Assembly: GCA_002347565.1 (NCBI GenBank)
Contig: DDXR01000076.1
Location: 42,006-106,005, forward strand
Length of the DNA stretch: 64,000 nt
Source: a bacterium UBP2_UBA2255
GTDB taxonomy: Bacteria > Edwardsbacteria > AC1 > EtOH8
Reading direction: 5' to 3'
This document shows positions 785 to 57,793 of the stretch, piece after piece; position 1 is the stretch's first letter, and each line of letters starts with the position of its first letter. A model generated the notes under the pieces. The model saw only the letters and a list, made by a program, of their open reading frames with translations. It did not search any database and had not been told where the DNA came from. The translations under genes and the position numbers were made by a program.

Positions 785-2842
785 ATGTTCAACCTCAAGA
801 AGTTCTACAAGCAGTACAACGACCCGGTCAAGGCCGGCTACCGCAAATCGCTGACCGAGGTCAGACGGATCGCCGCCCGCACCGAGAAGCCGCCCAAGGA
901 CCTGTCGCTGGCGCCCTACTACGCCTACTTCCACGAGGTGGCCGGCATCATCCTGAAGATGGCCGCCTACGGCGACGAGCTGCACTCCAAGGGCTACTTC
1001 GAAGCGACGCCGCTGGAGAAGCTGCGGGCCGAGAACGCCGCCCTGTTCGCGGAGCTGCTGCCGGAGAACTATCCGCGGACCTACGCCGACCCCGCCTTCT
1101 GCGTCAGTGAGTTCGGCGAGGGCATGGGGCAGCTGCTGTCGTACTTCTACCTAAAGTTCCGGGCCTACAGCCAGCACGCACTGCTGGGCAAGCTCTTCAA
1201 GATGGCGCAGTACAACCGGGCCTTCATCGGGGCCTTCGGCCTGCTGCGCGCCGGCGGCCCGCCTTTCGACGAGCTGCAGCGCACGGTCACCGCCCCCGAG
1301 CTCGCCGGCCTGGCCGAGGACCTGGCGCTCAGCCTGACCGAGGGCTACGACCCGGCCTTCACCTTCTTCGCCGACCTGGTGCGCACCGCCGACCTCTCCG
1401 ACCCGCGCTACCTGTTCCGCTACGGCCGCTCCATCAGCGATAACGAGCTTCGGACCGCGGCCTTCTTCCGCGACTACCCCGAGGCCAAGCTCCGGAAGCT
1501 GGCCCGGCTGATCGCCGGCGCCTACGTCACCGGATTCACCGCCCGCAACAAGGACCTCTCGGGCAAGACCACCGTCAACCTGGCGTTCTGCGCCGGCCAG
1601 GAGAAACTGGTGCGCTGCCTGGTGAAGGAGCTGAAGAAGCGCCGGCTGACCGCCCTGATCGGGCCGCCCCAGACCAGCAAGGTCAACGAGCAGTACGCCT
1701 ACGACCACCGCTTCGACACCGCGCTGTTCCTGGACCAAGGGTACGTCGACGAGGTCCACCAGGCCTACGAGCAGGCCTCCCAGCGCTGCCTGCCGCTGAT
1801 CAAGGCCCTCTCCGGCGTGATCGCCCTCACCAAGTTCGGCGAGCCGCCCTTCAAGCCCCAGAACAAGCCGCAGTGCCTGCGGTTCACGCCGGAGCAGCAG
1901 CAGCTCTACCAGGCCCACATCACCGGCCTGGCGCGGATCCAGGAGCAATACGCCCCGCGCAAGGAGCTGAGCTTCACCATCATCTCCTTCCCGGCGCCGG
2001 AGATCGGCAAGGATTTCGAGCGGATCTTCGAGGACGTGCTGGAGATCAACATGCTCGACCCCCGCAGGCACCAGAAGGTGCAGCAGCTGCTGATCGACGC
2101 CCTCGACCGCGCCGACCGCGTCCACGTCAAGGGCGCCGGCGCCAACCGCACCGACCTGACGGTGGCGCTGCCGCCGCTGGCCGACCCCGCCCGCCACACC
2201 AACTTCGAGAACTGCGGCGCCGACGTCAACATTCCGGTGGGCGAGGTCTTCACCTCGCCCCGGCTGGCCGGCACCGGCGGCCGTCTGCATGTGGCCGAGG
2301 CGTTCCTGGGCGGCCTGAAGTACGTCGACCTGACGCTGGACTTCACCGACGGCTACGTCACCGGCTACTCCTGCGGCAACTTCCCCACGCCGGAGGAGAA
2401 CCGGAAGTACATCGAGGAGAACCTGCTGTTCCCGCACACGACGCTGCCGATGGGCGAGTTCGCCATCGGCACCAACACCATGGCCTACGTGGCCGCCCGC
2501 CGGCACGGCATCCTGGACGTGCTGCCGGTGCTGATCATCGAGAAGATGGGGCCGCACTTCGCCATCGGCGACACCTGCTTCTCCCGCACCGAGGACCTGG
2601 CGGTGTTCAACCCCGACGGCAAGGAGATGACCGCCCGCCAGAACGAGAAGAGCGCCCTGCGCAAGACAGACCTGGAGCAGGCCTACACCCACAAGCACAC
2701 CGACATCACCCTGCCCTACGAGGAGATCGGCCTGATCGCCGCGCTGACGCCGGCCGGCGAACGGATCGACATCATCAAGAAGGGCCGGTTCGTGCTGCCC
2801 GGCACCCGCAAGCTCAACGCGCCGTTCAAGCAGCTGGGATGA
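785..2842 (+). CDS. putative aminopeptidase (M29/aminopeptidase-T-like)
   Basis: 685 aa. C-terminal motifs GEFAIGTN and HFAIGD resemble the AmpS/aminopeptidase T family. Clean start after a purine-rich stretch. Confidence 0.55.
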   Translation: MFNLKKFYKQYNDPVKAGYRKSLTEVRRIAARTEKPPKDLSLAPYYAYFHEVAGIILKMAAYGDELHSKGYFEATPLEKLRAENAALFAELLPENYPRTYADPAFCVSEFGEGMGQLLSYFYLKFRAYSQHALLGKLFKMAQYNRAFIGAFGLLRAGGPPFDELQRTVTAPELAGLAEDLALSLTEGYDPAFTFFADLVRTADLSDPRYLFRYGRSISDNELRTAAFFRDYPEAKLRKLARLIAGAYVTGFTARNKDLSGKTTVNLAFCAGQEKLVRCLVKELKKRRLTALIGPPQTSKVNEQYAYDHRFDTALFLDQGYVDEVHQAYEQASQRCLPLIKALSGVIALTKFGEPPFKPQNKPQCLRFTPEQQQLYQAHITGLARIQEQYAPRKELSFTIISFPAPEIGKDFERIFEDVLEINMLDPRRHQKVQQLLIDALDRADRVHVKGAGANRTDLTVALPPLADPARHTNFENCGADVNIPVGEVFTSPRLAGTGGRLHVAEAFLGGLKYVDLTLDFTDGYVTGYSCGNFPTPEENRKYIEENLLFPHTTLPMGEFAIGTNTMAYVAARRHGILDVLPVLIIEKMGPHFAIGDTCFSRTEDLAVFNPDGKEMTARQNEKSALRKTDLEQAYTHKHTDITLPYEEIGLIAALTPAGERIDIIKKGRFVLPGTRKLNAPFKQLG

Positions 2843-2849
2843 TCATAAA

Positions 2850-4199
2850 ATGATCCGGAGATGCATCTTCTCGCTGGCGATCGCCTTGCTCTCGGTCGTC
2901 CCCGCGGTTTTCGCCCAAAACACCGGCAAGATCGCGGGGACCGTCAAGGAAGATGGCACCTCTGAGCCGCTCACTGGTGCTGCCGTAACTATCCTTGGCA
3001 CTACATTGGGGGTCAATACGGACTTGGATGGCCGATTCGTATTAGTCAATGTACCGATAGGCGAATACACAGTAGAAGCACGGGTGGCTGGTTATCAGGA
3101 TAATAAAATACATCACGTACGCGTGCTACCTAGTCAGACCAGCTATATAATGTTCAAGCTATCATCTGTTCCTGCGCAAGTACAATTGGACATCAAGCCA
3201 TTGAGGGTTCGATCAGACAGCCTTGAACAAACCGTTATCACCCCATATCTAGAAGCGCCGATCGAACCGAATAGTAACTTAATATATTGCGCCACATTTC
3301 AGCTTGCATGGAACGAGTTAAAGGATAGCATCATCCGCCAGAATATCGAACTTGAGGGGGATCCAATCGAGGCACGATTGCTAAACAAACAGTTATTCGA
3401 CAAAAAATACCTCGACAGGAATTGTTACGTAGCCAGATCCGGGAAGTTGTCACGGTCAGTACTGGAAGACATCAATGGAGAACTGCATGATAAATTTGGG
3501 CAATTTGCGCCCGACAGCCTGAAAATACCTGTAAATCCGAATAACACGTCTTTTTTGTCATACGCCTTTCTCTATAAAAACCTCCGTTTCCCGCATAGAT
3601 TCAATTCGATCGATGGCACGATCCGCTTTGTTTTGCCGGATAGTTTCATCGACATAAAGTCTTTCGGCATTTCTGCGACCAATGAATCTATTGCCAAGCA
3701 ACTCCGGAAACAAGTATCTGTACTATACTATAATAGTAATGATGATTTTGCCGTGCGATTGCAGACCACTTCAAACAAGGACGAACTGATACTTGCGAAA
3801 ACAGAACATGCTTCGACCCTTTCCACAACTATTGAGAAGCTGGAGCAGAATATCAGGACCCACCGGACGTCTTCCCTTAATGAAGATGACGGGCTTGCTA
3901 TTCCATATATCGATTTCGATATTGACCATTCATACGAACAATTATCAAAGAGATATCTTCTTAATCCTGGGTGGCGGAGGTATTATATTGAAAGGGCTCT
4001 TCAGAGAATAAAATTCCAGCTTGATGAAGGCGGCGCCACGCTAGTTTCTACGGCAACAGTTACTATAATCAAAGGCATACCCCCAAGGCAATTTATCTTC
4101 AACAAACCATTCCTCGTCGTGCTCAAGCAGAAAGGCTGTGCTCATCCCTTTTTCGCCATGTGGGTGGCAAACCCCGAGCTTCTTGTTCTCGATAAGTGA
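2850..4199 (+). CDS. secreted serpin fused to an N-terminal carboxypeptidase-regulatory-like (CarbopepD) domain
   Basis: Signal peptide MIRRCIFSLAIALLSVVPAVFA. An N-terminal TGKIAGTVKEDG...VNVPIGEYTVEARVAGYQ beta-sandwich motif. Serpin hinge DEGGATLVSTATVT and C-terminal FNKPFLVVLKQKGCAHPFFAMWVANP, which matches the serpin consensus F-x-x-DHPFLF...GRV-NP. The body of the gene is AT-rich relative to its first ~45 codons. Confidence 0.8.
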   Translation: MIRRCIFSLAIALLSVVPAVFAQNTGKIAGTVKEDGTSEPLTGAAVTILGTTLGVNTDLDGRFVLVNVPIGEYTVEARVAGYQDNKIHHVRVLPSQTSYIMFKLSSVPAQVQLDIKPLRVRSDSLEQTVITPYLEAPIEPNSNLIYCATFQLAWNELKDSIIRQNIELEGDPIEARLLNKQLFDKKYLDRNCYVARSGKLSRSVLEDINGELHDKFGQFAPDSLKIPVNPNNTSFLSYAFLYKNLRFPHRFNSIDGTIRFVLPDSFIDIKSFGISATNESIAKQLRKQVSVLYYNSNDDFAVRLQTTSNKDELILAKTEHASTLSTTIEKLEQNIRTHRTSSLNEDDGLAIPYIDFDIDHSYEQLSKRYLLNPGWRRYYIERALQRIKFQLDEGGATLVSTATVTIIKGIPPRQFIFNKPFLVVLKQKGCAHPFFAMWVANPELLVLDK

Positions 4200-4591
4200 C
4201 CTCACTTACCGTCACAACCTCCGCTCGCGCGGAGCTGGTCGATATCACTGACCGGGTGCAACGCCTAGTCTTCGAGTCCGGGGTCAAGGACGGCCTGTGC
4301 CACGTGTGGGTGCCGCACACCACGGCCGGCCTGACCGTCAACGAGAACGCCGACCCCGACATCGCCCGCGACCTGCTGGCCGGGCTGGACCGCATCGCGC
4401 CCTGGGACGCGGGCTACGCCCACGGCGAGGGCAACTCGGCCGCGCACATCAAGTCGTCGCTGGTGGGCTGCGAGAAGACCCTGATCGTCCGGGAGGGGAA
4501 GCTGGCCCTCGGCACGTGGCAGGGGCTGTACTTCTGCGAGTTCGACGGTCCGCGGGAACGGCAGGTGTGGGTCCGGCTGGCCCCATGCTGA
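4196..4591 (+). CDS. YjbQ/UPF0047 family protein (secondary thiamine-phosphate synthase-like)
   Basis: 131 aa. The conserved pattern CHVWVPHTTAGLTVNENADPDI...HIKSSLVGCEKTLIV is typical of the family. GTG start overlaps the serpin stop (GTGA). Confidence 0.8.
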   Translation: MTSLTVTTSARAELVDITDRVQRLVFESGVKDGLCHVWVPHTTAGLTVNENADPDIARDLLAGLDRIAPWDAGYAHGEGNSAAHIKSSLVGCEKTLIVREGKLALGTWQGLYFCEFDGPRERQVWVRLAPC

Positions 4592-4625: not shown

Positions 4626-5165
4626 GTGTCGGAACAGCAAAACGACCAACAGCTTATCGAGCGGGCGCTGGCCGGCGACGGCCCGGCCTACGGCCGGTTG
4701 GTGACCAAATATCAGCGGGCCATTTACGCCCTCGCCCGCCGGATGCTGCGCGATCACGACCTGGCCGACGAGGCCGCCCAGGAAACCTTCGTCAAGGCCT
4801 ATTTCGCGCTGAAGCAGTACGACTCCTCGTTCCGGTTCTACACCTGGCTGTCGCGGATCGCCTACAACCTGTGCTGCGACTCGCTGAAGGAACGAAAACG
4901 CATCATCCCGCTGGACGCGGCGCCCGAGCCGCAGTCGGGAGATGATCCGTTGGAGGAGACGGCGCAGAACGACACCTGCGCCCGGATCCGGGCCCAGATC
5001 GACCGTTTGCCGCACGACCAGCGCGCGGTGGTCCTGCTGCGGGCCGACAAGGAACTCTCCTACGAGGACATCAGCTCGGTGTTAAGGATCCCGATGGGCA
5101 CGGTGATGTCCCGGCTGCACCGCGCCCGCCAGGCCCTCTACGGGGCGCTCAAGGACGTCTTATGA
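4626..5165 (+). CDS. ECF-type RNA polymerase sigma-70 factor
   Basis: 179 aa. Sigma-70 region 2 (ERALAGDGPAYGRLVTKYQRAIYALARRML...ETFVKAY) and region 4 (LPHDQRAVVLLRADKELSYEDISSVLRIPMGTVMSRLHRAR). Confidence 0.9.
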   Translation: MSEQQNDQQLIERALAGDGPAYGRLVTKYQRAIYALARRMLRDHDLADEAAQETFVKAYFALKQYDSSFRFYTWLSRIAYNLCCDSLKERKRIIPLDAAPEPQSGDDPLEETAQNDTCARIRAQIDRLPHDQRAVVLLRADKELSYEDISSVLRIPMGTVMSRLHRARQALYGALKDVL

Positions 5166-6019
5166 AGGAACCGAAGGGACATAGCTACTCGTTCGAACAG
5201 CTGCAGGCCTTCGCCGACGGCGCGCTGGACGACGCCCTGGCGCGGGATATCGGGCGTCATCTGGCCGGCTGCGGCGAGTGCCGCGCGGCGGTGGACCGCC
5301 TGCGGGCGCTGGACGCCCGGATCGGCCAGGCGGAGTCGGCCGATGCGCCGGCCGGATACTTCGAGACATTCGGATCGCGCGTGGCCGGGCGGATCGCCGC
5401 GCGCCGGGCGGCAAAGGAGCGCCCGCTCTTCCGCTTCCCGCTCTGGGGGCTGATCCCGGCCGCCGCGGCCGCCGGACTGGTACTGGTCATCGCCCTGCGG
5501 ACGGAAACGCCGGTGCCCGAACTCACGGTCCGGCTTCCGCCGGCGACCCGCTTCGCTCGGACCGAAAGTGCACCCGCGACCGGCCTGGCCGGGTCGCCCG
5601 TAGCCGCTGCCGGCAAGATGTTGCCGGCCGTCGGACAGAAGGAGGCCCGCCATCACGATCCAGCGGCGGCGGATGCGCGCGAAGCTGACGCCGTACGAAC
5701 CGAACCGGCGTCGGACAGCCGGGCGAAACTGGCCGCCCCCGAGCCGCCGCTGACCGGCCCCTCGCCCGCCGCACCTACGGCCCTGCAGGCCCGCAGTGAA
5801 GCCGTCTCGCCTCCGGCGGCCGGCCCGGCCCGGGGAACGCCGCGCCGAGACTCCCGCATGGCCATTGCTGCCAGGACCGCCATCAAGGCCCGACTGCGCG
5901 CCCCTGCCGAGCCAGCCACCGCGCGCGCAATCGTGATCCACCTGCCCGATGGCGGCGCCTATTGCCCGGCGCCGGAGGTCGCCGCGGCCATCGCGATCGA
6001 GCTCCCGACAGACGATTGA
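5162..6019 (+). CDS. anti-sigma factor (zinc-finger HxxxCxxC type, single-pass membrane)
   Basis: ATGA overlap with the sigma gene. N-terminal HLAGCGECRAAVDRL motif. One TM segment LWGLIPAAAAAGLVLVIAL. Ala/Pro-rich periplasmic tail. Confidence 0.75.
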   Translation: MKEPKGHSYSFEQLQAFADGALDDALARDIGRHLAGCGECRAAVDRLRALDARIGQAESADAPAGYFETFGSRVAGRIAARRAAKERPLFRFPLWGLIPAAAAAGLVLVIALRTETPVPELTVRLPPATRFARTESAPATGLAGSPVAAAGKMLPAVGQKEARHHDPAAADAREADAVRTEPASDSRAKLAAPEPPLTGPSPAAPTALQARSEAVSPPAAGPARGTPRRDSRMAIAARTAIKARLRAPAEPATARAIVIHLPDGGAYCPAPEVAAAIAIELPTDD

Positions 6020-6056: not shown

Positions 6057-6086
6057 TTGACTTTTCGGGGCCAATTCCCGTATAGT
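6057..6086 (+). promoter_or_regulatory. candidate sigma-70 promoter (TTGACT-N18-TATAGT) for the response-regulator gene
   Basis: Hexamers ~10 nt upstream of the 6097 start. Shares the CGCTTGACTTTT extended -35 seen at four other intergenic sites. Confidence 0.4.
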
Positions 6087-6096
6087 TACATCTTAT

Positions 6097-6735
6097 ATGG
6101 CAGATTACAAGATACTGATCGCCGATGACGAGGCCAACATCGTCAAGATCCTGGAGTTCGAACTGAAGAAGAACAGCTACCAGGTCCTGACGGCGTTCGA
6201 CGGCGAGGAGGCCCTGTGGGTGGCCGAGCGCGACCACCCCGACCTCATCATTTCCGACATCATGATGCCCAAGATGGACGGCTACGAGCTGTGCCGCCGC
6301 GTCAAGGCCAATCCCGACCTGCGGGCGGTGCCGTTCCTGTTCCTGACCGCCAAGACCGGCATCGAAAACCGGATCCAGGGCTACGCCATCGGTGGCGAGA
6401 AGTACATCACCAAGCCCTGCAACCGCCAGGAACTGCTCAAGATCATCGACATGCGGTTGAAGCACGCGGACAAGGCAAAGAAGCTGTTCGCCGAAAAGGC
6501 CCGGAAGTTCCAGGGCGACCTGGCCATCATCTCGATCTTCTCGCTGCTGGACATGTTCTTCATGGGCGGCTGGTCCGGCTATATCGACCTCGCCTCCGGC
6601 GACGGCCAGACCGGACGGATCGAGCTGGAGAACGCCACGATCGGGATCTGCACGCTCAACGGCCAGTCGGAATCTGACACGCTCGCCAAGCTGCTGGCGT
6701 GGAACCAGGGGACGTTCCTGGCCGAGCACGAGTGA
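6097..6735 (+). CDS. response regulator receiver protein with C-terminal DUF4388 domain
   Basis: CheY-like receiver (ILIADDE...DLIISDIMMPKMDG...FLFLTAK) followed by DLAIISIFSLLDMFFMGGWSGYIDL, characteristic of DUF4388. Confidence 0.8.
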   Translation: MADYKILIADDEANIVKILEFELKKNSYQVLTAFDGEEALWVAERDHPDLIISDIMMPKMDGYELCRRVKANPDLRAVPFLFLTAKTGIENRIQGYAIGGEKYITKPCNRQELLKIIDMRLKHADKAKKLFAEKARKFQGDLAIISIFSLLDMFFMGGWSGYIDLASGDGQTGRIELENATIGICTLNGQSESDTLAKLLAWNQGTFLAEHE

Positions 6736-30127: not shown

Positions 30128-31222
30128 TTAAAAACCTAATGACGTTTGATTGTCTTTTTCCTTATCTTTTACCATATAGATATTGCCATCGTAAGGTGTG
30201 TATTTAAGCATATCGGAAGCTTTTATACAGTAGTCTACACCTAGGTCAATCCCAATAAACCTGCGACCCAATTGCTTCGCTGCAATACATGTGGTACCAA
30301 TACCACAAAAAGGGTCGAGTACGATATCACCATTGAAAGAGCGCACTTTATCCTCTTTGAAAGTATACATGGCTATTAATCTATTAGGTATAGCACGCGG
30401 GAAAGGCGCTGGATGGACTTCTCTTTTAATATCTTCGGAAATAATCGGCCACACTTGTCTCGTAAGGTTCATCCATTGAGATACATCGAGTTTGCTTCTT
30501 TCCTTAATCTGCTTACTAATTATAGATGGCTTCCCGGCCTTGACATAAACGTTGATAAACTCAATGGTATTGCGTTCATACAAGTTTGGCGGATAAGGGT
30601 ACGAGCCAAACATTTTTTCTGTTGTTTGTTTCTGCCAAATGTACAGGCTATATAAAGATAGCTTTGTGTGATCTAGTATTGTACGTTCAATATCATTGTT
30701 TATATTTTTCAAATGCCTTGTATGTTGTTCCGATATCACTTTTTTTGCTATGGGCATTATTGGCGTTTGAATACACAACTTGCCGTTGGGAGTAAGAATA
30801 CGTTCGCATTCACTCCAAATCAATAATAACTCCTTCAAGTATTTATCATAACTAGACTGACCTATTTGGCCCGAGAATCCATAATCAACCATATTCCAAT
30901 ATGGTGGACTAGTGATTATAAGATGAATGGTATCGCTGGGGATTCGTTGCATTACATTATAGCTATTACCACAGATCACTTTGTTGACAATTGCATCAAT
31001 GTTTTTATAAGGCTGCGCAGTATTACGTGCGTCAAGCAAATTGCTATTCGATTCGATCACATTCTTCAGGTTGTCTTCCATCCTTTTCTGATAAATGCGT
31101 GTTGATGGATTCAATTGATCCGCGTGTTTTGAAATGATCTTTTTATCATCAAATAAACTGTCCGCATCGGCCCTTCTCAACCGATTACGTTTCATTTTAT
31201 ATCTAATCTTGTCATCTACCAT
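30128..31222 (-). CDS. Type II DNA methyltransferase, beta-class (SPPY motif IV before FxGxG motif I), probably N4-cytosine or N6-adenine
   Basis: LIITSPPYWNMVDY (motif IV) precedes VLDPFCGIGTTCIAA (motif I). AT-rich gene (~33% GC) in a GC-rich genome. Confidence 0.85.
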   Translation of the reverse strand: MVDDKIRYKMKRNRLRRADADSLFDDKKIISKHADQLNPSTRIYQKRMEDNLKNVIESNSNLLDARNTAQPYKNIDAIVNKVICGNSYNVMQRIPSDTIHLIITSPPYWNMVDYGFSGQIGQSSYDKYLKELLLIWSECERILTPNGKLCIQTPIMPIAKKVISEQHTRHLKNINNDIERTILDHTKLSLYSLYIWQKQTTEKMFGSYPYPPNLYERNTIEFINVYVKAGKPSIISKQIKERSKLDVSQWMNLTRQVWPIISEDIKREVHPAPFPRAIPNRLIAMYTFKEDKVRSFNGDIVLDPFCGIGTTCIAAKQLGRRFIGIDLGVDYCIKASDMLKYTPYDGNIYMVKDKEKDNQTSLGF

Positions 31223-31224
31223 AC

Positions 31225-32697
31225 CTATACATCCTTTCCGCGCACATCAACTACACGGAACTTAATGAATGATTTGCTATTTTCTTTCAATAATCCGATC
31301 CGAGCGTGTTTGATTTTATCCGAAAACGACTCGGCAAGAATAACACCTCTTGTTTTACCTGAACCATCCAGGTTTTGATGTACCCAGCCAATATATCTAA
31401 GCATCTGTCCAATGACCTTGTCCTCAGCGTTACCTCTTTTTATTTCAACTACGACATAGTGACCTGTGCCATCTTTACAAAGCATATCAATACGTCCAAT
31501 CAATGTTGAATACTGCCTACCATTCTCCACCATCGTCAGACCTGATTCAATCAAAGACGGTTTTCGACTATAAATATCTTCGATTTCTTTCTCATAAATC
31601 AGATCTTCAATTTCCTTCTGCTCTTCCTTAGATAATGTTTTAAGTAATTCGACGCTATCCTTAGATATCTTTTTAGCTTCGCTCGGCACTGCTGTTTCTA
31701 TCTGATACTTAAACAACTCAAATGATGTTGGACGACGCGAATAATCGCCATAGAAATTGAACCAATCATTGATTGACTTGAAAACGAATGGTGTGTACTT
31801 GTCAATATACTTACCACCTATCTTATCTAGTAAATCTTTTCTAGGTGTTTGATACTTACCATCATTGTTTGTTATTAAATCCCCAAAAAGAAATAGTATA
31901 AAACTTTTCTGATATGAATAGTTTTGATAGATTGTTTTATACTTTGGCACTGCAGAAACACTATATCCGAAAATGTCTTCAGCTTTAATAGATGGTATTT
32001 TTTCGACACACTTGATTAAAGTGCTTTTTTCCTTATCCGATAGTTTTCTCCAGATTTTAATTCTCTTTAATACATTACCTATATCTGTTTTATTACTAAT
32101 GATGTTAATGAACAATCTGAATTCATCATCTGTTACCATATAGCCTGCATTCGTGAATACTGTAAGAAAACTCACAAACGGGTTGATATACTCGCGTCCC
32201 TTTAGATTGTAAAACTGATATTTACTTATTTGTCGAGAGATGACCTCTCTTAATGATGTTTCACTCTTGCATTTAATAAATTCGTACCCCGCATCTGTAA
32301 TATAGACATACTCGTCCTGTATATACACAAAACCCAGCAACTCAAATATGATGATATTAATTCTCATTAATGCAGTATAACTAGCTAAATCTTGTTTTTT
32401 CTTGCCCACATAGGGTGCTATGAGTTTACGATTTTCTAACTCTTCGTAGTATTTATGTTGATTCTTTAAATCCCATTTGTCTTCAAGAGATATTCTCTGT
32501 AATGCTTTCAATCTTTCTTTTAGAATCTGAACATTTTCAATTTTTACAGACATAGCCTTAGGGATATACCAATAATAATCGTTTGCAGTATATTCCTTTA
32601 AAAAATCAATCCAATATAGACGATCTGTAAAATCCTGTGGCAGATCGTACAACTTCTCGATCCGCTTCTTATCATAATGCTTTTGCTTTTTGATCAT
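31225..32697 (-). CDS. putative Type II restriction endonuclease (C-terminal PD-(D/E)xK / NucS-DUF91-like nuclease)
   Basis: 490 aa, AT-rich. C-terminal GRIDMLCKDGTGHYVVVEIKRGNAEDKVIGQMLRYIGW contains a D...ExK nuclease motif. Stop lies 2 nt from the MTase start. Confidence 0.6.
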   Translation of the reverse strand: MIKKQKHYDKKRIEKLYDLPQDFTDRLYWIDFLKEYTANDYYWYIPKAMSVKIENVQILKERLKALQRISLEDKWDLKNQHKYYEELENRKLIAPYVGKKKQDLASYTALMRINIIIFELLGFVYIQDEYVYITDAGYEFIKCKSETSLREVISRQISKYQFYNLKGREYINPFVSFLTVFTNAGYMVTDDEFRLFINIISNKTDIGNVLKRIKIWRKLSDKEKSTLIKCVEKIPSIKAEDIFGYSVSAVPKYKTIYQNYSYQKSFILFLFGDLITNNDGKYQTPRKDLLDKIGGKYIDKYTPFVFKSINDWFNFYGDYSRRPTSFELFKYQIETAVPSEAKKISKDSVELLKTLSKEEQKEIEDLIYEKEIEDIYSRKPSLIESGLTMVENGRQYSTLIGRIDMLCKDGTGHYVVVEIKRGNAEDKVIGQMLRYIGWVHQNLDGSGKTRGVILAESFSDKIKHARIGLLKENSKSFIKFRVVDVRGKDV

Positions 32698-32715
32698 TGC
32701 TATATCCTAATGTTA

Positions 32716-32922
32716 TTAAGTCCCCATGATCTTCGCCCGGAAGATAAAGAACACCGCGCCCAGCAGGCACAGGCCCGCCCACAGGTAGTCGGAACTGGGT
32801 TTCCCCTTGAGGAAGTAGACCGGGAACGGCAGGAACACCGCCAGCGCCGCCACGTACCAGGCGAAGGTCATGAAGACGTTGCTGCAGCCCAGCAGCAGCG
32901 CGGTAAGGTAGTATTGATGCAT
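32716..32922 (-). CDS. DUF486-family (DMT-like) small membrane protein, apparently internally deleted remnant
   Basis: GC-rich 68-aa ORF. The N-terminus LLGCSNVFMTFAWY and C-terminus LAVFLPFPVYFLKGKPSSDYLWAGLCLLGAVFFIF match the two ends of ~110-aa DUF486 proteins, with the middle missing. AT-rich DNA flanks it on both sides. Confidence 0.45.
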   Translation of the reverse strand: MHQYYLTALLLGCSNVFMTFAWYVAALAVFLPFPVYFLKGKPSSDYLWAGLCLLGAVFFIFRAKIMGT

Positions 32923-32982
32923 TTAATACGTATTTACAGATACTACATTACGAGTTATTTCGAAACAGGGGAACAATGATTC

Positions 32983-34503
32983 TTAATATTTCCTTCGACC
33001 TCTTGGCCTGCTTGATACACGGTGTATTTCTCTACCTTTAATATCTCGCATTTCTAACGCTTGTCGGAAAACAGGGTGGACTTCCCATTTTAATCCATCA
33101 TCAATGTTAGTCCTCGCCTTGAAAAGCGTCGGTTTATCAGAAAAGCAAAAATGTTCATAACTAGCTGGTCCATAATCCCTACGACCATAGAAAAAACCAA
33201 TTTCGAATAAAAATGCTGCTACTTGAAGTTTTGTTGGCGTGCCAACAACACCAATGATACGGGGTGATAAATGGTTAAGAATTTTATTATCGATTATCTT
33301 AAATAACGCGTCTGTTGTTAATTCTTCAGGCTCACGACTGAAAGCAGAAATTAATTCTTCTATATCTGGGCATCGCGATTTAAATTCAGCAACTGTATCT
33401 TCAATTCTTCGATCACCGAATTTTGTTAAATCACCAAGAATATCAAGTAACATGATTTTTTCGTGCTTCTGCGTTAATGCACGTGTCGCAGCATATCTAC
33501 ATAATTCTATCATCCAACGTGGCCGGCCCTTGGATAGAGTATTAATAACTACATGCGCTGGTCTTGTGCTACCTGCCCAATCAAGAGGTGAATTGAAAAT
33601 AAAACCAATAAAGTACTTTTGTCGTTCCTCTTCATTCCCGGACAATGGTTTAATTTTAGCAAATTCTCCTTTACGGATTAAATAACCCTCGATACGTTTT
33701 GCCAATAACCGTCTACAATCATCCTCAGTCCATATTATATCACACATATATTGTTCTATCTTAGAAAGCGATTCATACTCCATTTTAATAATTGTCCACA
33801 CATTCGGTCGTACTGCTGCACGCACCCTCAAACCGGGTATTAATAAAGATAATTCAAGGATAGCATCAAAGAAAGAAGATATTCTTACTCTTTGAAGTTT
33901 CGTATTTTCGAAATTCTTATCAATATCATCTACAAAGAGCCAAACCAACGACCCTTCGTCAATACCCCTCTTTACGACACCTTCTAATGATTTAACAACG
34001 TGTTCAACCTTTTTTGTTTCGACACTTGCTGGGCCGACTTTTATTGTGGTTTTTAAACGATCAGTAATTGCACTAACAATATTTTTTCTTTTAAAACCAT
34101 TCCTTTCAGCTTCTTCAACAAGTGAAATAGCATCATCCGACCATGCTATCCCAATTTTAGAGCCAATTTCATTTGCTAATCGTTCAATAATGGCCTTTTT
34201 CCATTCACGGGTAAATGTAGCATAATCTTCTGTTTGCAGGGTAGGTGCTAATTCGCTACCTGCACATGATAGAACAACATCGTTTGCAGATAGTTCTGGA
34301 CTGATTTTCATTTTACATATTCTTAGCAGCGCGCTCTTCCCGTCGCCTTTATAGGCACGTGTAATAGCTATCTTCCTGTTTTTATCTTTAAAAATATTAC
34401 TCTCTGGTTTCTCAACGATATATTTAGTAAAAATTTCTTCTGGTTCATGTTCAGCAGCATCATTCCCAAATAGATCTTCGTCATTTAAATTGATACGTAT
34501 CAT
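32983..34503 (-). CDS. orphan P-loop NTPase (KAP-like Walker B), candidate defense protein
   Basis: 506 aa, AT-rich. Walker A-like AITRAYKGDGKSALL. Walker B LVWLFVDDIDKNF, close to the KAP-family hhhhDDLDR pattern. No recognised partner domains. Sits next to the R-M pair inside an AT-rich island. Confidence 0.65.
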   Translation of the reverse strand: MIRINLNDEDLFGNDAAEHEPEEIFTKYIVEKPESNIFKDKNRKIAITRAYKGDGKSALLRICKMKISPELSANDVVLSCAGSELAPTLQTEDYATFTREWKKAIIERLANEIGSKIGIAWSDDAISLVEEAERNGFKRKNIVSAITDRLKTTIKVGPASVETKKVEHVVKSLEGVVKRGIDEGSLVWLFVDDIDKNFENTKLQRVRISSFFDAILELSLLIPGLRVRAAVRPNVWTIIKMEYESLSKIEQYMCDIIWTEDDCRRLLAKRIEGYLIRKGEFAKIKPLSGNEEERQKYFIGFIFNSPLDWAGSTRPAHVVINTLSKGRPRWMIELCRYAATRALTQKHEKIMLLDILGDLTKFGDRRIEDTVAEFKSRCPDIEELISAFSREPEELTTDALFKIIDNKILNHLSPRIIGVVGTPTKLQVAAFLFEIGFFYGRRDYGPASYEHFCFSDKPTLFKARTNIDDGLKWEVHPVFRQALEMRDIKGREIHRVSSRPRGRRKY

Positions 34504-34594: not shown

Positions 34595-36367
<1,773 letters not shown>

Positions 36368-55999: not shown

Positions 56000-56163
56000 G
56001 AAACCAGGAAGCCAAGAATGAGTTTTCTTGCATTCATGGCCTCCTTATAAACAAAGAATTTTGGGACCCATCCACAGATGGCACCGATCGACACAGATTC
56101 TTAAAATGAACCAGGAAACAATGAATCCAAAATATCATGCATTCATGGTTTCCTTATAAAGGC
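56000..56163. repeat. tandem duplication of a ~55-nt segment in the hsp20-hspR intergenic region
   Basis: Copy 1 is 56000-56055 and copy 2 is 56107-56163. Both share ATGAA(A)CCAGGAA...GAAT...GCATTCATGG..TCCTTATAAA. On the minus strand each reads TTTATAAGGAGG/AAACC-ATG-AAT-GCA (SD plus mini-ORF). Confidence 0.6.
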
Positions 56164-56180
56164 TTCTATGAGTTCGGCCA

Positions 56181-56636
56181 CTAATTGACCTCGATGGCGA
56201 TCTCGCGCGGCTTGACCTCCTCGGACTTGGGGATGCGGATGGTCAGCACGCCGTTCTCGTAGGCGGCCTTGGTCTTGCCCGACTGGACCTCGGTGGGGAG
56301 CCGGATGATGCGCTGGAACTTGCCGTAGGTGCGCTCGATGCGGTGGTAGGTCTTGTCCTTGGTATCCTCGTCGTGGTGGCGCTCGCCGGAGATCGACAGC
56401 ACGTCGGCGGTGATCTGGATCTTGATGTCCTCCTTGGTCATGCCGGGGATCTCGGCCTTGACCACCAGCTCGTCCTTGGTCTCCTCGATGTCCATCAGCG
56501 GCGCCCACAGACCTTCGACCAATGCACGCCGTCCCGGAACCCGCCCGAAGAAATCGGTGAACACGCGGTTCATATCGTCATGGAAAGCCTGCATCTCGTT
56601 GAACGGGTTCCATTTGACCAGATCATTCGGAGTCAT
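56181..56636 (-). CDS. Hsp20/alpha-crystallin small heat-shock protein
   Basis: The alpha-crystallin domain pattern W.P..DI.ETKDELVVKAEIPG...GVLTIRIPK is unmistakable. Confidence 0.95.
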   Translation of the reverse strand: MTPNDLVKWNPFNEMQAFHDDMNRVFTDFFGRVPGRRALVEGLWAPLMDIEETKDELVVKAEIPGMTKEDIKIQITADVLSISGERHHDEDTKDKTYHRIERTYGKFQRIIRLPTEVQSGKTKAAYENGVLTIRIPKSEEVKPREIAIEVN

Positions 56637-56672
56637 GTCGGTTTTCCTTTCCTGTTATTGTATTCTTGGCTA

Positions 56673-56702
56673 ATTATAATACTTGAGCGTTCTTTTGTCA
56701 AG
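56673..56702 (-). promoter_or_regulatory. hsp20 promoter (TTGACA-N17-TATAAT, minus strand) overlapped by a HAIR-like HspR operator
   Basis: The minus strand reads CTTGACA-AAAGAAC-GCTCAAG, i.e. 7-7-7 spacing matching 11 of 14 arm positions of the HAIR consensus CTTGAGT-N7-ACTCAAG. The -35 TTGACA lies inside the left arm. The -10 TATAAT is 17 nt downstream. An AGGAAAGG RBS precedes the ATG. Confidence 0.5.
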
Positions 56703-56863
56703 TCCTTTGACATTGACAAAATGATTTATTTTGATAAATTCGTAATTCATTATTGTATAATGTATTGAACGCAATTATTACGGGAACCTGGTGACAAGGT
56801 ACAGTCTCTAACGGTATTGAACGGTTAAAACCGCAATAACTAACACGCAAACGGGGGAAGACC

Positions 56864-57793
56864 ATGAAAAAGCTGCTCACTTTGGCGATGCTACTCGCTA
56901 TCGGGTCATGCCTGGCGTTGACCGGCTGCAGCAAAACCACCTCTCCGGCGGCGATCGATGATGATGCCGCCATCAACACGGTGCTCTCCCTCTCCGGCTA
57001 CTCCACATCGGACAATTACGGGGACGACGGCACCGCGGCCGTCTCGTATGCCGCGGCCAAGGATTCCTTCCCGTCCTACATCAAGTGGCGCCGTCGCATC
57101 ACGTCGATCACCCGCAACGTCTCCATCAGCTACGATTCGGCCAACGCCGTGGCCCTGGCCGCCATCACCGTCGACTACTACGGCCGGCTGATCGTCGACA
57201 ACAACAACGATGGCGACCTGGCCGACACGCTGGTCCGGCCGCTGCACGACCGGGGCGTGCGCTACGTCCGGCTGCGCAAGGTGGGCGAACGCTGGCGGGT
57301 CTGGGGCTGCTCACCGCTGGAGATCGCCACGGTCGCGCCGCAGAACGCGGTGTCCATCGACAGCGTGCGGGTGGCCGGAGTGTACGACGGCCAGAACCGC
57401 GAGTGGCTGTTCAACGGCTCGGTCTTCAACCAGATCCGGCTGCGCGAGAACATGCCGCTGCTGGACGAGAACTCCTCGGTGACGCTGACCGTCTGGGGCC
57501 GGCTCCAGGACCCCGCCGACTCGATGTGGGCCTTCCTGCACCGGCGCGTCCCGCAGCTCGGCGGGCTGCTCTACCACCTGCGCGAGCCGCTGGCACGCAC
57601 CAGCGTCTTTGTTTTCACCAAGACCTGGACCATCGCCAGCGACAATATCACGTTCCGGCCGGCGCTGCGCCACGCCTGCGTCGACGCGATCCTGGGATCG
57701 ACGTTGTTCGACACCACGGCCGCGGCCGAATACTCGGCCCGGCTGTGGACCATGCCGTACATCGTCAAGGCGGCAGCCGACACCCTGCCCTGA
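56864..57793 (+). CDS. lipoprotein, hypothetical
   Basis: Lipobox LALTGCS. 309 aa, GC3-biased. Confidence 0.6.
   Translation: MKKLLTLAMLLAIGSCLALTGCSKTTSPAAIDDDAAINTVLSLSGYSTSDNYGDDGTAAVSYAAAKDSFPSYIKWRRRITSITRNVSISYDSANAVALAAITVDYYGRLIVDNNNDGDLADTLVRPLHDRGVRYVRLRKVGERWRVWGCSPLEIATVAPQNAVSIDSVRVAGVYDGQNREWLFNGSVFNQIRLRENMPLLDENSSVTLTVWGRLQDPADSMWAFLHRRVPQLGGLLYHLREPLARTSVFVFTKTWTIASDNITFRPALRHACVDAILGSTLFDTTAAAEYSARLWTMPYIVKAAADTLP

What the first reader, a model, noticed from the sequence alone, without database searches (positions are those of the whole stretch)
2850..4199. Compositionally chimeric secreted serpin fused to a CarbopepD-like N-terminal domain; predicted P1 Lys
A GC-rich signal peptide and the first part of a carboxypeptidase-regulatory-like beta-sandwich are followed by an AT-rich serpin body. 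The composition shifts near nt 2990. The serpin hinge EGGATLVSTATVTIIK-GIPPRQFIFNKPF aligns with the alpha1-antitrypsin ...EAIPM-SIPPEVKFNKPF segment, which places Lys (or the adjacent Gly) at P1. That suggests inhibition of trypsin-like proteases. This is an unusual domain fusion for a bacterial serpin, and the codon usage looks foreign. It sits next to a YjbQ gene with a GTGA overlap.
Basis: partly seen in the sequence, partly recalled or inferred. Interest (0 to 1): 0.65.

Follow-up and report, generated by a model that had tools for sequence, protein, structure and literature searches.

The report
Foreign, secreted, highly divergent serpin-like protein
This gene encodes a secreted protein that joins a small beta-sandwich domain to a very divergent serpin-like domain; it was acquired whole from an AT-rich donor, belongs to a large, mostly unannotated bacterial family, and shows no good evidence of being a trypsin inhibitor with Lys at P1.

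Summary
The ORF at 2850-4199 (449 aa) is real and under purifying selection (dN/dS 0.19). It has a signal peptide, a complete CarboxypepD_reg domain (aa 28-104) and a serpin-fold domain (about aa 118-449). Pfam's Serpin model scores only 17.4 bits against a cut-off of 27, but Foldseek assigns the fold with probability 1.0.

The compositional break is real: GC3 drops from 0.91 to 0.46 at codon 33 (nt ~2949). It lies inside the CarboxypepD_reg domain, not at the domain junction. Nine independent contigs carry the identical gene, so it is not an assembly chimera. A 68%-identical syntenic ortholog is also AT-rich. The closest relatives of the serpin-like domain already carry the CarbopepD domain, so the whole fused gene was transferred.

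By hinge register, P1 is Gly409 and Lys408 is P2 (Thr in the ortholog). The hinge (EGGATLVST; family EKGAILKSE) departs from the inhibitory consensus ExGTEAAAA. Even so, it is strongly conserved and amphipathic, followed by a hypervariable loop.

The family has more than 2,000 cluster representatives, nearly all annotated hypothetical, and many are fused to targeting modules. My best guess is a surface-targeted loop-insertion protease trap with a small P1. A non-inhibitory role is nearly as likely.

The parts
2850..4199 (+). Complete ORF, 449 aa plus stop: signal peptide, CarboxypepD_reg domain, linker, divergent serpin-like domain
   Evidence: P0001 is 100% identical. Identical DNA in 6 of 6 fetched contigs from different samples. 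dN/dS 0.19 against the ortholog.
2850..2915 (+). Sec signal peptide, aa 1-22 (MIRRCIFSLAIALLSVVPAVFA | QN). It lies in the GC-rich 5' segment (GC3 ~0.9).
   Evidence: Read from the sequence. Hydrophobic window aa 1-24. All family members have a signal or lipoprotein-type N-terminus.
2931..3161 (+). CarboxypepD_reg (PF13620 / PF13715) beta-sandwich, aa 28-104, full length. It resembles the N-terminal domain of SusC/RagA-type TonB-dependent receptors.
   Evidence: E 2e-15, profile 2-81 of 82; TIGR04056, N-terminal positions 2-60; RagA 6sli_B residues 5-58; plasmid hits are the N-termini of TonB-dependent receptors.
2949..4095 (+). AT-rich, foreign-composition segment (GC3 ~0.46). Its boundaries lie inside the ORF at both ends.
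   Evidence: change-points at codons 33 and 415; 0 of 500 permutations reach the observed score.
3201..4196 (+). Divergent, helix-poor serpin-fold domain, aa ~118-449, including the s6B/hB motif NLIYCATFQLAWNEL (aa 143-157)
   Evidence: AF2 pLDDT above 90 for aa 121-410. Foldseek against the PDB returns serpins at probability 1.0, TM 0.36-0.50. Family profile against PAI-1, E 3e-6. 47 of 74 members match PF00079 at E<=0.01.
4026..4085 (+). Hinge and reactive-centre-loop equivalent, aa 393-412: E393 (P17), G395 (P15), A396 (P14), L398 (P12), K408 (P2), G409 (P1), I410 (P1'), P411-P412
   Evidence: Ungapped alignment to PAI-1 puts G409 opposite R346. Family hinge statistics. Predicted as a beta-strand 395-408 paired with strand 378-392.
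4196..4591 (+). yjbQ (UPF0047) gene; its GTG start overlaps the serpin-like gene's stop (GTGA). Context only; no functional link shown.
785..2842 (+). Upstream M29-like peptidase homolog (685 aa, no signal peptide); its stop lies 7 nt before the ATG. Syntenic in the ortholog locus. Context only.
4626..6019 (+). ECF sigma factor (4626-5165) and zf-HC2 anti-sigma factor with one TM segment (5162-6019), downstream on the same strand. Syntenic in the ortholog. Context only.

Best explanation
The gene encodes a Sec-exported protein with two domains. The N-terminal CarboxypepD_reg beta-sandwich is of the kind found at the N-terminus of SusC/RagA outer-membrane receptors, and most likely serves as an envelope-targeting or spacer module (inferred). 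The C-terminal domain is a very divergent, helix-poor member of the serpin superfamily. The whole fused gene was acquired horizontally from an AT-rich lineage before the host split from a sister species, and it has been kept under purifying selection inside an M29-like / yjbQ / ECF-sigma gene string. The first ~33 codons later took on host-like codon usage; how this happened is unknown, and a recombination or gene-conversion tract entering from the upstream gene is one possibility. As to mechanism, I judge it most likely that the serpin-like domain still works by loop-into-sheet insertion. A conserved amphipathic hinge (buried face P14 Ala, P12 Leu, P10 Ser, P8 Ala, P6 Val, P4 Ile) leads into a variable bait loop, so the protein would act as a protease trap or decoy in the periplasm or at the cell surface. 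P1 would be a small residue (Gly409), so the target would not be trypsin-like. Shown: the domains, fold, export signal, composition, orthology, selection and hinge pattern. Inferred: the targeting role, loop insertion, any inhibition, and any specificity.
For: Identity and fold.
Export.
Not an artefact: identical DNA and context in independently assembled contigs.
Horizontal origin of the whole gene:
- GC3 0.50 against 0.88-0.97 in the neighbours.
- The ortholog is syntenic and also AT-rich, GC3 0.40 against 0.85-0.90.
- In other genomes the family gene matches its host's GC, mean difference -0.03.
- The nearest fused relatives have AT-rich genes. One sits in a compositionally matching Cloacimonadota MAG; another is again AT-rich in a 52%-GC contig.
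- The serpin-domain tree groups the window protein with CarbopepD-bearing proteins in 49 of 50 bootstraps.
- The window also holds an AT-rich restriction-modification island.
Functional gene: dN/dS 0.19 overall, 0.14 in the serpin-like part.
Loop-insertion mechanics:
- P17 Glu in 64 of 70 members and P15 Gly in 70 of 70.
- Invariant Gln385 at the position that the ungapped PAI-1 alignment makes equivalent to the A1AT shutter His334; PAI-1 also has Gln there. The mapping to A1AT is from my recall of its sequence.
- Even positions P14 to P4 are small or hydrophobic, and odd positions are polar.
- The distal loop varies in sequence and in length, 20-29 residues from P15 to the conserved Phe.
- AF2 gives a loop-inserted model for the query, with top PDB hits mostly cleaved or latent serpins. 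It gives a native-like, partly inserted model for a 30%-identical member, with top hits mostly native serpins and delta-antichymotrypsin. Both serpin states are therefore compatible with family sequences.
Inhibitor-like company: fusions to Dockerin, as in known cellulosomal serpins (PMC2930009; bioRxiv 10.1101/2020.04.21.053413). Two members also carry a chagasin-like I42 inhibitor domain.
Against: - The hinge fails the empirical inhibitory consensus P17-P9 ExGTEAAAA (PMC8233489). The query has Ala, Thr, Leu, Val, Ser, Thr at P14-P9. The family has Leu at P12 in 61 of 70 members, Lys at P11 and Glu at P9.
- From general knowledge, bulky P12 substitutions turn inhibitory serpins into substrates.
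- The best model of the query has the loop fully inserted without cleavage, a latent-like state that would be inactive.
- Gly is an odd P1.
- The fold is reduced. From the DSSP strings, helix A is missing and one helix plus strand s1A between s2A and s3A appear absent. TM-scores are only 0.45-0.5 with rmsd 7-9 A.
- No protease gene is a conserved neighbour in 80 loci.
- The I42 hits are below Pfam's cut-off (22-26 bits vs 27.2).
- AF2 is not a validated predictor of serpin conformational state.
Confidence: 0.5

Rival explanations
1. A non-inhibitory serpin-fold protein. The 'loop' is a permanent or near-permanent strand of sheet A (latent-like or delta-like). The domain serves as a stable binding, carrier or structural module on the envelope, and the variable distal loop is a recognition surface rather than a protease bait.
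For: - The hinge deviates from ExGTEAAAA at P14, P12, P11 and P9.
- P15-P6 are conserved like a structural strand.
- The query loop is rich in beta-branched residues (ATLVSTATVTII) and is modelled at pLDDT above 90 as a strand paired with s5A, with no s1C strand. The top 50 PDB matches are almost all cleaved, latent or complexed serpins.
- The fold is reduced and helix-poor.
- No protease partner is conserved in the neighbourhood.
Against: - A distant member is modelled native-like with an exposed, low-confidence loop and an s1C strand.
- P17 Glu and P15 Gly, which mark the turn where insertion starts, are retained, and the shutter-equivalent Gln is invariant.
- The distal loop is hypervariable with indels, unlike a core strand.
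- Dockerin and chagasin-like fusions parallel known inhibitors.
- Known non-inhibitory serpins usually have degenerate hinges, not strongly conserved ones (general knowledge).
Confidence: 0.35
2. One reading: a chimera made of a native GC-rich N-terminal domain and a foreign serpin, acting as an inhibitor of trypsin-like proteases through Lys at P1.
For: - The composition does change within the gene.
- Lys408 is adjacent to the register-P1. From memory, a few known inhibitory serpins work with a loop one residue shorter (CrmA, C1-inhibitor, alpha2-antiplasmin), so Lys408 as P1 is not strictly excluded.
Against: - The break lies inside the CarbopepD domain, not at the junction.
- The N-terminus is orthologous to that of P0002, whose 5' end is AT-richer.
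- The fusion predates the transfer.
- Three registers put Gly409 at P1 (and counting).
- The ortholog has Thr in place of Lys408 while keeping G-I-P-P-R.
- Basic residues are almost absent at the register-P1 across the family.
- The hinge is non-canonical.
Confidence: 0.07
3. A protease-sensing module. Cleavage of the bait loop by an extracellular protease triggers the serpin conformational change, which is read out by the adjacent ECF sigma / anti-sigma pair. In some relatives the readout would be a sigma factor fused directly to the serpin-like domain.
For: - Two family representatives (P0272, P0091) have ECF sigma regions 2 and 4, then a weakly hydrophobic segment, then the serpin-like domain.
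- In the window and in the ortholog, an ECF sigma / zf-HC2 anti-sigma pair lies two genes downstream on the same strand.
Against: - Sigma or anti-sigma genes are not a recurrent neighbour across the 80 loci.
- The putative TM segments in the fusions are weak (Kyte-Doolittle at or below 1.63).
- No experimental precedent is known to me.
- The synteny here is shared by only two related species.
Confidence: 0.06
4. An assembly or binning artefact: a metagenomic contig joining DNA of two organisms inside this gene.
For: An abrupt GC3 shift within an ORF is what a chimeric join could look like.
Against: - Identical gene DNA with the same flanks appears in six fetched contigs from JGI, ENA and Logan assemblies of different samples.
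- The reading frame and the domain run straight through the break.
- A diverged ortholog has the same synteny.
Confidence: 0.01

Closest known systems
Canonical serpins (Pfam PF00079), e.g. PAI-1 and alpha1-antitrypsin; bacterial examples include thermopin, miropin and siropins
   Same: - The overall serpin fold (Foldseek probability 1.0).
- The s5A, hinge, loop, s4B, s5B region is recognisable in sequence: P17 Glu, P15 Gly, the P-F motif, and Gln at the shutter position as in PAI-1.
- The loop length from P15 to the conserved Phe is 22 residues, as in alpha1-antitrypsin.
- The protein is secreted.
   Different: - Below Pfam's gathering score; only the last ~65-85 residues align in sequence.
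- The domain is about 330 aa instead of ~370-400. Helix A is absent and there are fewer helices between s2A and s3A (DSSP). TM is only 0.45-0.5.
- The hinge is A-(T/I)-L-(V/K)-S-(T/E)-A instead of T-E-A-A-A-A.
- P1 is Gly.
- Known prokaryotic serpins are unusually close in sequence to eukaryotic ones (PMC8233489); this family is not.
Dockerin-bearing cellulosomal serpins of Clostridium thermocellum and Ruminococcus flavefaciens
   Same: A serpin-type domain fused to a module that places it on an extracellular or cell-surface structure. Some members of this family carry Dockerin_1 themselves.
   Different: - Here the targeting module is an N-terminal CarboxypepD_reg beta-sandwich, not a dockerin.
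- The cellulosomal serpins are canonical PF00079 members with demonstrated inhibition (bioRxiv 10.1101/2020.04.21.053413). This protein is neither.
N-terminal CarboxypepD_reg domain of SusC/RagA TonB-dependent receptors
   Same: The best sequence matches of aa 1-140 outside the family are receptor N-termini: TIGR04056 positions 2-60, RagA 6sli_B, and plasmid-borne TonB-dependent receptors.
   Different: No plug or barrel follows. The domain is followed by a short linker and the serpin-like domain.
Latent PAI-1, latent antithrombin and delta-antichymotrypsin (loop-inserted, uncleaved serpin states)
   Same: The query model has the intact loop as a strand next to s5A and no s1C strand, and it matches latent and cleaved structures best. 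The model of a distant member matches delta-antichymotrypsin and native antithrombin, which are partly inserted. The query's loop composition (STATVTII) resembles that of PAI-1 (SSSTAVIV).
   Different: In those proteins the state is reached from an active native form. Whether this protein ever has an exposed loop is unknown.

Membership tests
Serpin superfamily (PF00079 / serpin fold) | Sequence match to the Pfam Serpin model at or above the gathering score | tested here: not met
   17.4 bits against a cut-off of 27; only aa 377-442 match profile positions 303-370. 47 of 74 family members match at E<=0.01, best E 6e-7.
Serpin superfamily (PF00079 / serpin fold) | Three-sheet serpin fold with the s5A, loop, s4B, s5B C-terminal topology | tested here: met
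Serpin superfamily (PF00079 / serpin fold) | Conserved hinge start (P17 Glu, P15 Gly) and the C-terminal P-F motif | tested here: met
   E393, G395 and P420-F421. Family counts: Glu 64 of 70 and Gly 70 of 70; P420 and F421 are at least 90% conserved.
Inhibitory serpins | Hinge consensus P17-P9 ExGTEAAAA, with small residues at P12-P9 (Hopkins 1993; Irving 2000, as quoted in PMC8233489) | tested here: not met
   The query has E-G-G-A-T-L-V-S-T and the family E-K-G-A-I-L-K-S-E. P12 is Leu in 61 of 70, P11 Lys in 48 of 70, P9 Glu in 55 of 70.
Inhibitory serpins | A metastable native state with an exposed reactive-centre loop | tested here: inconclusive
   The query model is loop-inserted. The P0105 model is native-like with a partly inserted hinge. 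AF2 cannot settle conformational state.
Inhibitory serpins | Covalent, SDS-stable complex with a target protease; stoichiometry of inhibition near 1 | not testable with these tools
   Needs biochemistry.
Trypsin-directed (P1 Arg/Lys) serpins | A basic residue at P1, 14 residues after the P15 Gly | tested here: not met
   G395 + 14 = G409. The PAI-1 alignment puts G409 opposite R346. K408 is at P2 and is Thr in the ortholog. Family register-P1: Lys 1, Arg 0 of 78.
CarboxypepD_reg (PF13620) | A full-length match above the gathering score | tested here: met
   57.2 bits against a cut-off of 32.3; aa 28-104 cover profile positions 2-81 of 82.
Horizontally acquired gene (compositional island) | Codon composition far from the host's, with relatives that have donor-like composition | tested here: met
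   GC3 0.50 against 0.88-0.97. Relatives are AT-rich. A phylogenetic clade is shared with fused AT-rich genes.
Horizontally acquired gene (compositional island) | Flanking mobility genes, a tRNA or direct repeats | tested here: not met
   No integrase or transposase among the called neighbours. The gene is packed between host-composition genes with a 7-nt gap and a 4-nt overlap. tRNAs and repeats were not scanned.

The most novel reading that the evidence does not exclude
This gene belongs to a large clade (more than 2,000 clusters at 50% identity) of 'mini-serpins' that is essentially unannotated. The clade has a rewired hinge (G-A-I-L-K-S-E-A). Its members may be a mechanistically distinct kind of loop-insertion protein. 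They could be serpin folds that are constitutively partly or fully inserted. Or they could be protease-triggered conformational switches used as extracytoplasmic sensors, as the ECF-sigma / serpin-like fusions and the ECF sigma / anti-sigma pair next to this gene hint.
Probability: 0.15. Interest if true: 0.75.

Novelty: new variant of a known kind. Interest (0 to 1): 0.42.

Why it matters
Known prokaryotic serpins are few and sporadic, and their sequences are surprisingly close to eukaryotic ones. This gene is an entry point to a much larger and far more divergent serpin-like family. The family is secreted or lipoprotein-anchored, centred on Planctomycetota and Verrucomicrobiota, and present in many anaerobe phyla. 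Standard annotation calls it 'hypothetical'. If its members are inhibitors, the accepted hinge rule for predicting inhibitory serpins is too narrow. If they are not, they are a large natural set of serpin folds that use loop-sheet chemistry for something else. The gene is also a clean example of an old horizontal acquisition that has stayed AT-rich inside a genome with GC3 above 0.9, with its edges taking on host composition.

Tried and rejected
- Host taxonomy: a search with the methylmalonyl-CoA mutase found only '[bacterium]' at 96% identity and Clostridia at ~76%. The GTDB scan did not contain the host species. The host remains an unclassified high-GC anaerobe seen in tailings-pond and enrichment metagenomes.
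- Conserved-neighbour analysis over 80 loci found only tandem paralogs (7 loci). There is no recurrent protease, sigma factor or transporter.
- A chagasin sequence recalled from memory failed as a probe to locate the I42 fusions. They were found with Pfam instead.
- A search for a donor of the GC-rich 5' segment within the window found nothing.
- Plasmid and phage collections match only the CarbopepD module, so no vector was identified.
- Literature searches found no description of this divergent family.
- Promoter and terminator scans show nothing between the genes.
I downgraded this after the second model came out native-like and after seeing the conserved even/odd hinge pattern and the variable distal loop.
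- Assembly chimera was rejected.
Full report
**1. What is there**

Window 2850-4199 (+) is a 449-codon ORF.
- It starts 7 nt after the stop of a 685-aa M29-like gene. It ends in GTGA, which overlaps the GTG start of yjbQ (YjbQ = TIGR00149, E 5e-48).
- No promoter-like or terminator-like motif separates these genes.
- The product has a Sec-type signal peptide (MIRR, a hydrophobic core, then VFA|QN).
- It has a complete CarboxypepD_reg domain: aa 28-104, profile positions 2-81 of 82, E 2e-15.
- After a short linker comes a C-terminal domain of ~330 aa. Pfam's Serpin model touches only its last 66 residues, at 17.4 bits against a gathering score of 27.
- phmmer against the PDB finds PAI-1 at E ~1e-3 over aa 376-432.

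**2. Is it a serpin?**

A homology search returned about 130 relatives. Most are 350-380 aa and labelled 'hypothetical protein', and only six share the CarbopepD domain.
- A profile of 70 of them hits PAI-1 at E 3e-6, again only over the C-terminal ~83 positions.
- Pfam's Serpin model matches 47 of 74 members at E<=0.01.
- AlphaFold2 with the family alignment gives a confident model of the C-terminal domain: pLDDT above 90 for aa 121-410. The N-terminal domain is poorly modelled because few sequences cover it.
- Foldseek against the PDB returns only serpins (probability 1.0, E down to 1.6e-11) with modest superposition: TM 0.36-0.51, rmsd 6-9 A.
- A second model, of a 30%-identical member without the N-terminal domain (P0105), has pLDDT 90.7 and pTM 0.87 and gives the same answer.

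Sequence motifs map sensibly. These mappings are inference from the alignments and from the alpha1-antitrypsin (A1AT) and PAI-1 sequences.
- NLIYCATFQLAW corresponds to the s6B/helix-B motif N-x-x-F-S-P-x-S-I.
- The invariant Gln385 sits where A1AT has the shutter His334 and PAI-1 has Gln.
- E393 and G395 are P17 and P15.
- P420-F421 is the conserved P-F.

The DSSP strings suggest a reduced fold. Helix A is absent, and only one helix lies between s2A and s3A, with no s1A strand. I could not inspect coordinates, so this last point is also inference.

Conclusion: this is a member of the serpin superfamily by fold and by weak but consistent sequence signal, and it lies outside what Pfam annotates.

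**3. Family size and habits**

- A profile search of 1.84 billion cluster representatives finds 2,108 at E<=1e-30 and 3,212 at E<=1e-10.
- In species-representative genomes the family occurs in at least 115 genomes. Planctomycetota dominate. It is also found in Verrucomicrobiota, Cloacimonadota, Bacillota (including cultured Clostridium akagii and C. polyendosporum), Spirochaetota, Elusimicrobiota, Desulfobacterota and others.
- All 70 aligned members have signal-peptide or lipoprotein-type N-termini.
- Many representatives are multidomain. Partners include CarboxypepD_reg, Dockerin_1, DUF1559 (PF07596), TPR, ankyrin, WG repeats, FG-GAP and ECF sigma-70 domains.
- Two members have a CarbopepD-like domain, a Dockerin, a chagasin-like I42 domain (22-26 bits, just below the 27.2 cut-off) and then the serpin-like domain.
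- No neighbourhood is conserved over 80 loci apart from tandem paralogs.
- So a fusion is normal for this family, though the CarbopepD version is a small subset.

**4. The compositional anomaly**

Gene GC3 is 0.50, against 0.97 (M29-like), 0.91 (yjbQ) and 0.88 (sigma factor).
- The maximum-likelihood change-point is at codon 33 (nt ~2949), where GC3 falls from 0.91 to 0.46. None of 500 permutations reaches the observed score. There is a weaker rise to 0.63 after codon 415.
- The break is therefore real, but it lies just after the first beta-strand of the CarboxypepD_reg domain, not between the domains.
- It is not an assembly artefact. Six fetched contigs from JGI, ENA and Logan assemblies of different samples contain the identical gene DNA in the same context.

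A sister species carries a syntenic ortholog, P0002.
- Identities are 68% for the target, 77% for the M29-like protein and 80% for YjbQ.
- Its gene is also AT-rich: GC3 0.40 against 0.85-0.90 for the M29-like, yjbQ and sigma-factor genes. Its 5' end is not GC-rich.
- The acquisition therefore predates the split of the two species.
- dN/dS is 0.19 (0.14 in the serpin-like part), so the gene is maintained by selection. dS is about twice that of the flanks.

Evidence on the source:
- Elsewhere the family gene normally matches its host's GC (mean difference -0.03).
- In a neighbour-joining tree of the serpin-like domain alone, the window protein and its ortholog group in 49 of 50 bootstraps with P0003 and P0006, which both carry CarbopepD, and with P0009, an N-terminally truncated partial sequence.
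- The fused relative P0005 sits in a Cloacimonadota MAG with matching low GC (0.37 against 0.39). The P0006 gene is again AT-rich (0.37) in a 0.52-GC contig.

Taken together, the whole fused gene came from an AT-rich lineage. The donor is not identified: the closest fused relatives are only 41-45% identical. The host-like 5' 33 codons are a secondary feature of this lineage. I found no source for them in the window. A conversion tract entering from the upstream gene is a plausible explanation, but it is untested.

The same window has a typical AT-rich restriction-modification island at 30.1-34.5 kb, so the host does take up AT-rich DNA. The host itself could not be classified.

**5. P1 and inhibitory potential**

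Three registers agree on P1.
- G395 (P15) plus 14 residues is G409.
- Counting back 8 residues from the Phe of FNKPF, as in A1AT, gives G409.
- The ungapped HMMER alignment places G409 opposite PAI-1 R346 and I410 opposite M347.

Lys408 is therefore P2. The ortholog has Thr at 408 and keeps G-I-P-P-R. Across 78 family sequences the register-P1 is Gly 15, Ser 15, Ala 12, Thr 10, Leu 9 and Cys 5, with Lys 1 and Arg 0.

The hinge does not fit the inhibitory consensus ExGTEAAAA (rule as quoted in PMC8233489). The family has P14 Ala (59 of 70), P12 Leu (61 of 70), P11 Lys (48 of 70), P10 Ser (68 of 70), P9 Glu (55 of 70) and P8 Ala (56 of 70). The query has A-T-L-V-S-T-A.

On the other hand, the hinge is far more conserved than in typical non-inhibitory serpins. 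It is strictly amphipathic: the even positions P14 to P4 are small or hydrophobic, with P4 often Met, and the odd positions are polar. A segment that varies in sequence and length follows it. That is the pattern expected of a strand that enters sheet A and presents a variable bait.

The two AF2 models disagree on state.
- The query (the shortest loop, rich in beta-branched residues) is modelled with aa 395-408 as a strand paired with s5A and with no s1C strand. Its best PDB matches are overwhelmingly cleaved, latent or complexed serpins.
- P0105 is modelled with only P15-P11 in a strand, a low-confidence exposed loop and an s1C strand. Its best matches are native alpha1-antitrypsin, native antithrombin and delta-antichymotrypsin.

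I take this as showing that both states are compatible with family sequences, not as a determination of state.

**6. Verdict**

- The protein is a horizontally acquired, secreted fusion of a CarboxypepD_reg domain and a serpin-like domain, from a large and poorly annotated divergent serpin family.
- I favour a loop-insertion protease trap or decoy with a small P1, tethered or positioned by the N-terminal beta-sandwich (about 0.5).
- A non-inhibitory, constitutively inserted serpin fold is the main rival (about 0.35).
- A trypsin inhibitor with Lys at P1 and a domain-level chimera are unlikely (about 0.07).
- A speculative but interesting lead is a protease-sensing role tied to ECF sigma signalling. 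It is suggested by sigma / serpin-like fusion proteins and by the downstream ECF sigma / anti-sigma pair.
- Novelty: a new variant of a known kind. Interest is moderate, and lies mainly at the level of the family.

Noticed in passing
window 30128-34503 (- strand): An AT-rich island (GC 0.33-0.40 in a ~0.67 background). It encodes an N6/N4 DNA methylase (30128-31222), a NucS_C/AlwI-like endonuclease (31225-32697) and a 505-aa protein with no Pfam match (32983-34503). It is probably a mobile restriction-modification cassette, and it lies next to a methylmalonyl-CoA mutase gene (34595-36367).
   Followed up: partly
family members P0272 (536 aa) and P0091 (552 aa), not in the window: ECF sigma-70 regions 2 and 4 are fused to the serpin-like domain through a weakly hydrophobic segment (~aa 165-200) and a conserved FFLPDP motif. 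This may be a membrane-tethered sigma factor with an extracytoplasmic serpin-like sensor.
   Followed up: partly
family members P0302 (799 aa) and P0339 (811 aa), not in the window: The architecture is a CarbopepD-like domain, Dockerin_1, a chagasin-like Inhibitor_I42 domain (22-26 bits, below the 27.2 cut-off) and the serpin-like domain. This may be a two-headed, scaffold-docked protease inhibitor.
   Followed up: partly
window 785-2842 (+): A 685-aa protein with only a weak, partial match to Peptidase_M29 (32.8 bits, aa 374-601) and no signal peptide. It is 77% identical in the sister species. It looks like an unusually long, divergent M29-like protein.
   Followed up: no
L007 83-1138 (ortholog locus): The YARHG-domain gene upstream of the M29-like gene in the sister species is also AT-rich (GC3 0.43). 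The window's ORF 1-699 has intermediate GC3 (0.69). The locus may have taken up foreign genes more than once.
   Followed up: no
L091 160-1515: The CarbopepD / serpin-like relative P0006 is again much more AT-rich (GC 0.37) than its 0.52-GC contig. This subclade may be transferred repeatedly into GC-richer hosts.
   Followed up: partly
window 25500-26500, 56000-57000, 62500-64000: Further patches of lowered GC (0.43-0.54) that were not examined.
   Followed up: no
window 6097-6735 (+): A response-regulator receiver protein (212 aa) directly after the ECF sigma / anti-sigma pair, with somewhat lowered GC (0.53-0.66). A sigma-70-like promoter motif lies at 6057-6086.
   Followed up: no
7 of 80 related loci, e.g. 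L039 5001-7363: Tandem paralogs of the serpin-like gene are the only recurrent neighbour in the family.
   Followed up: partly
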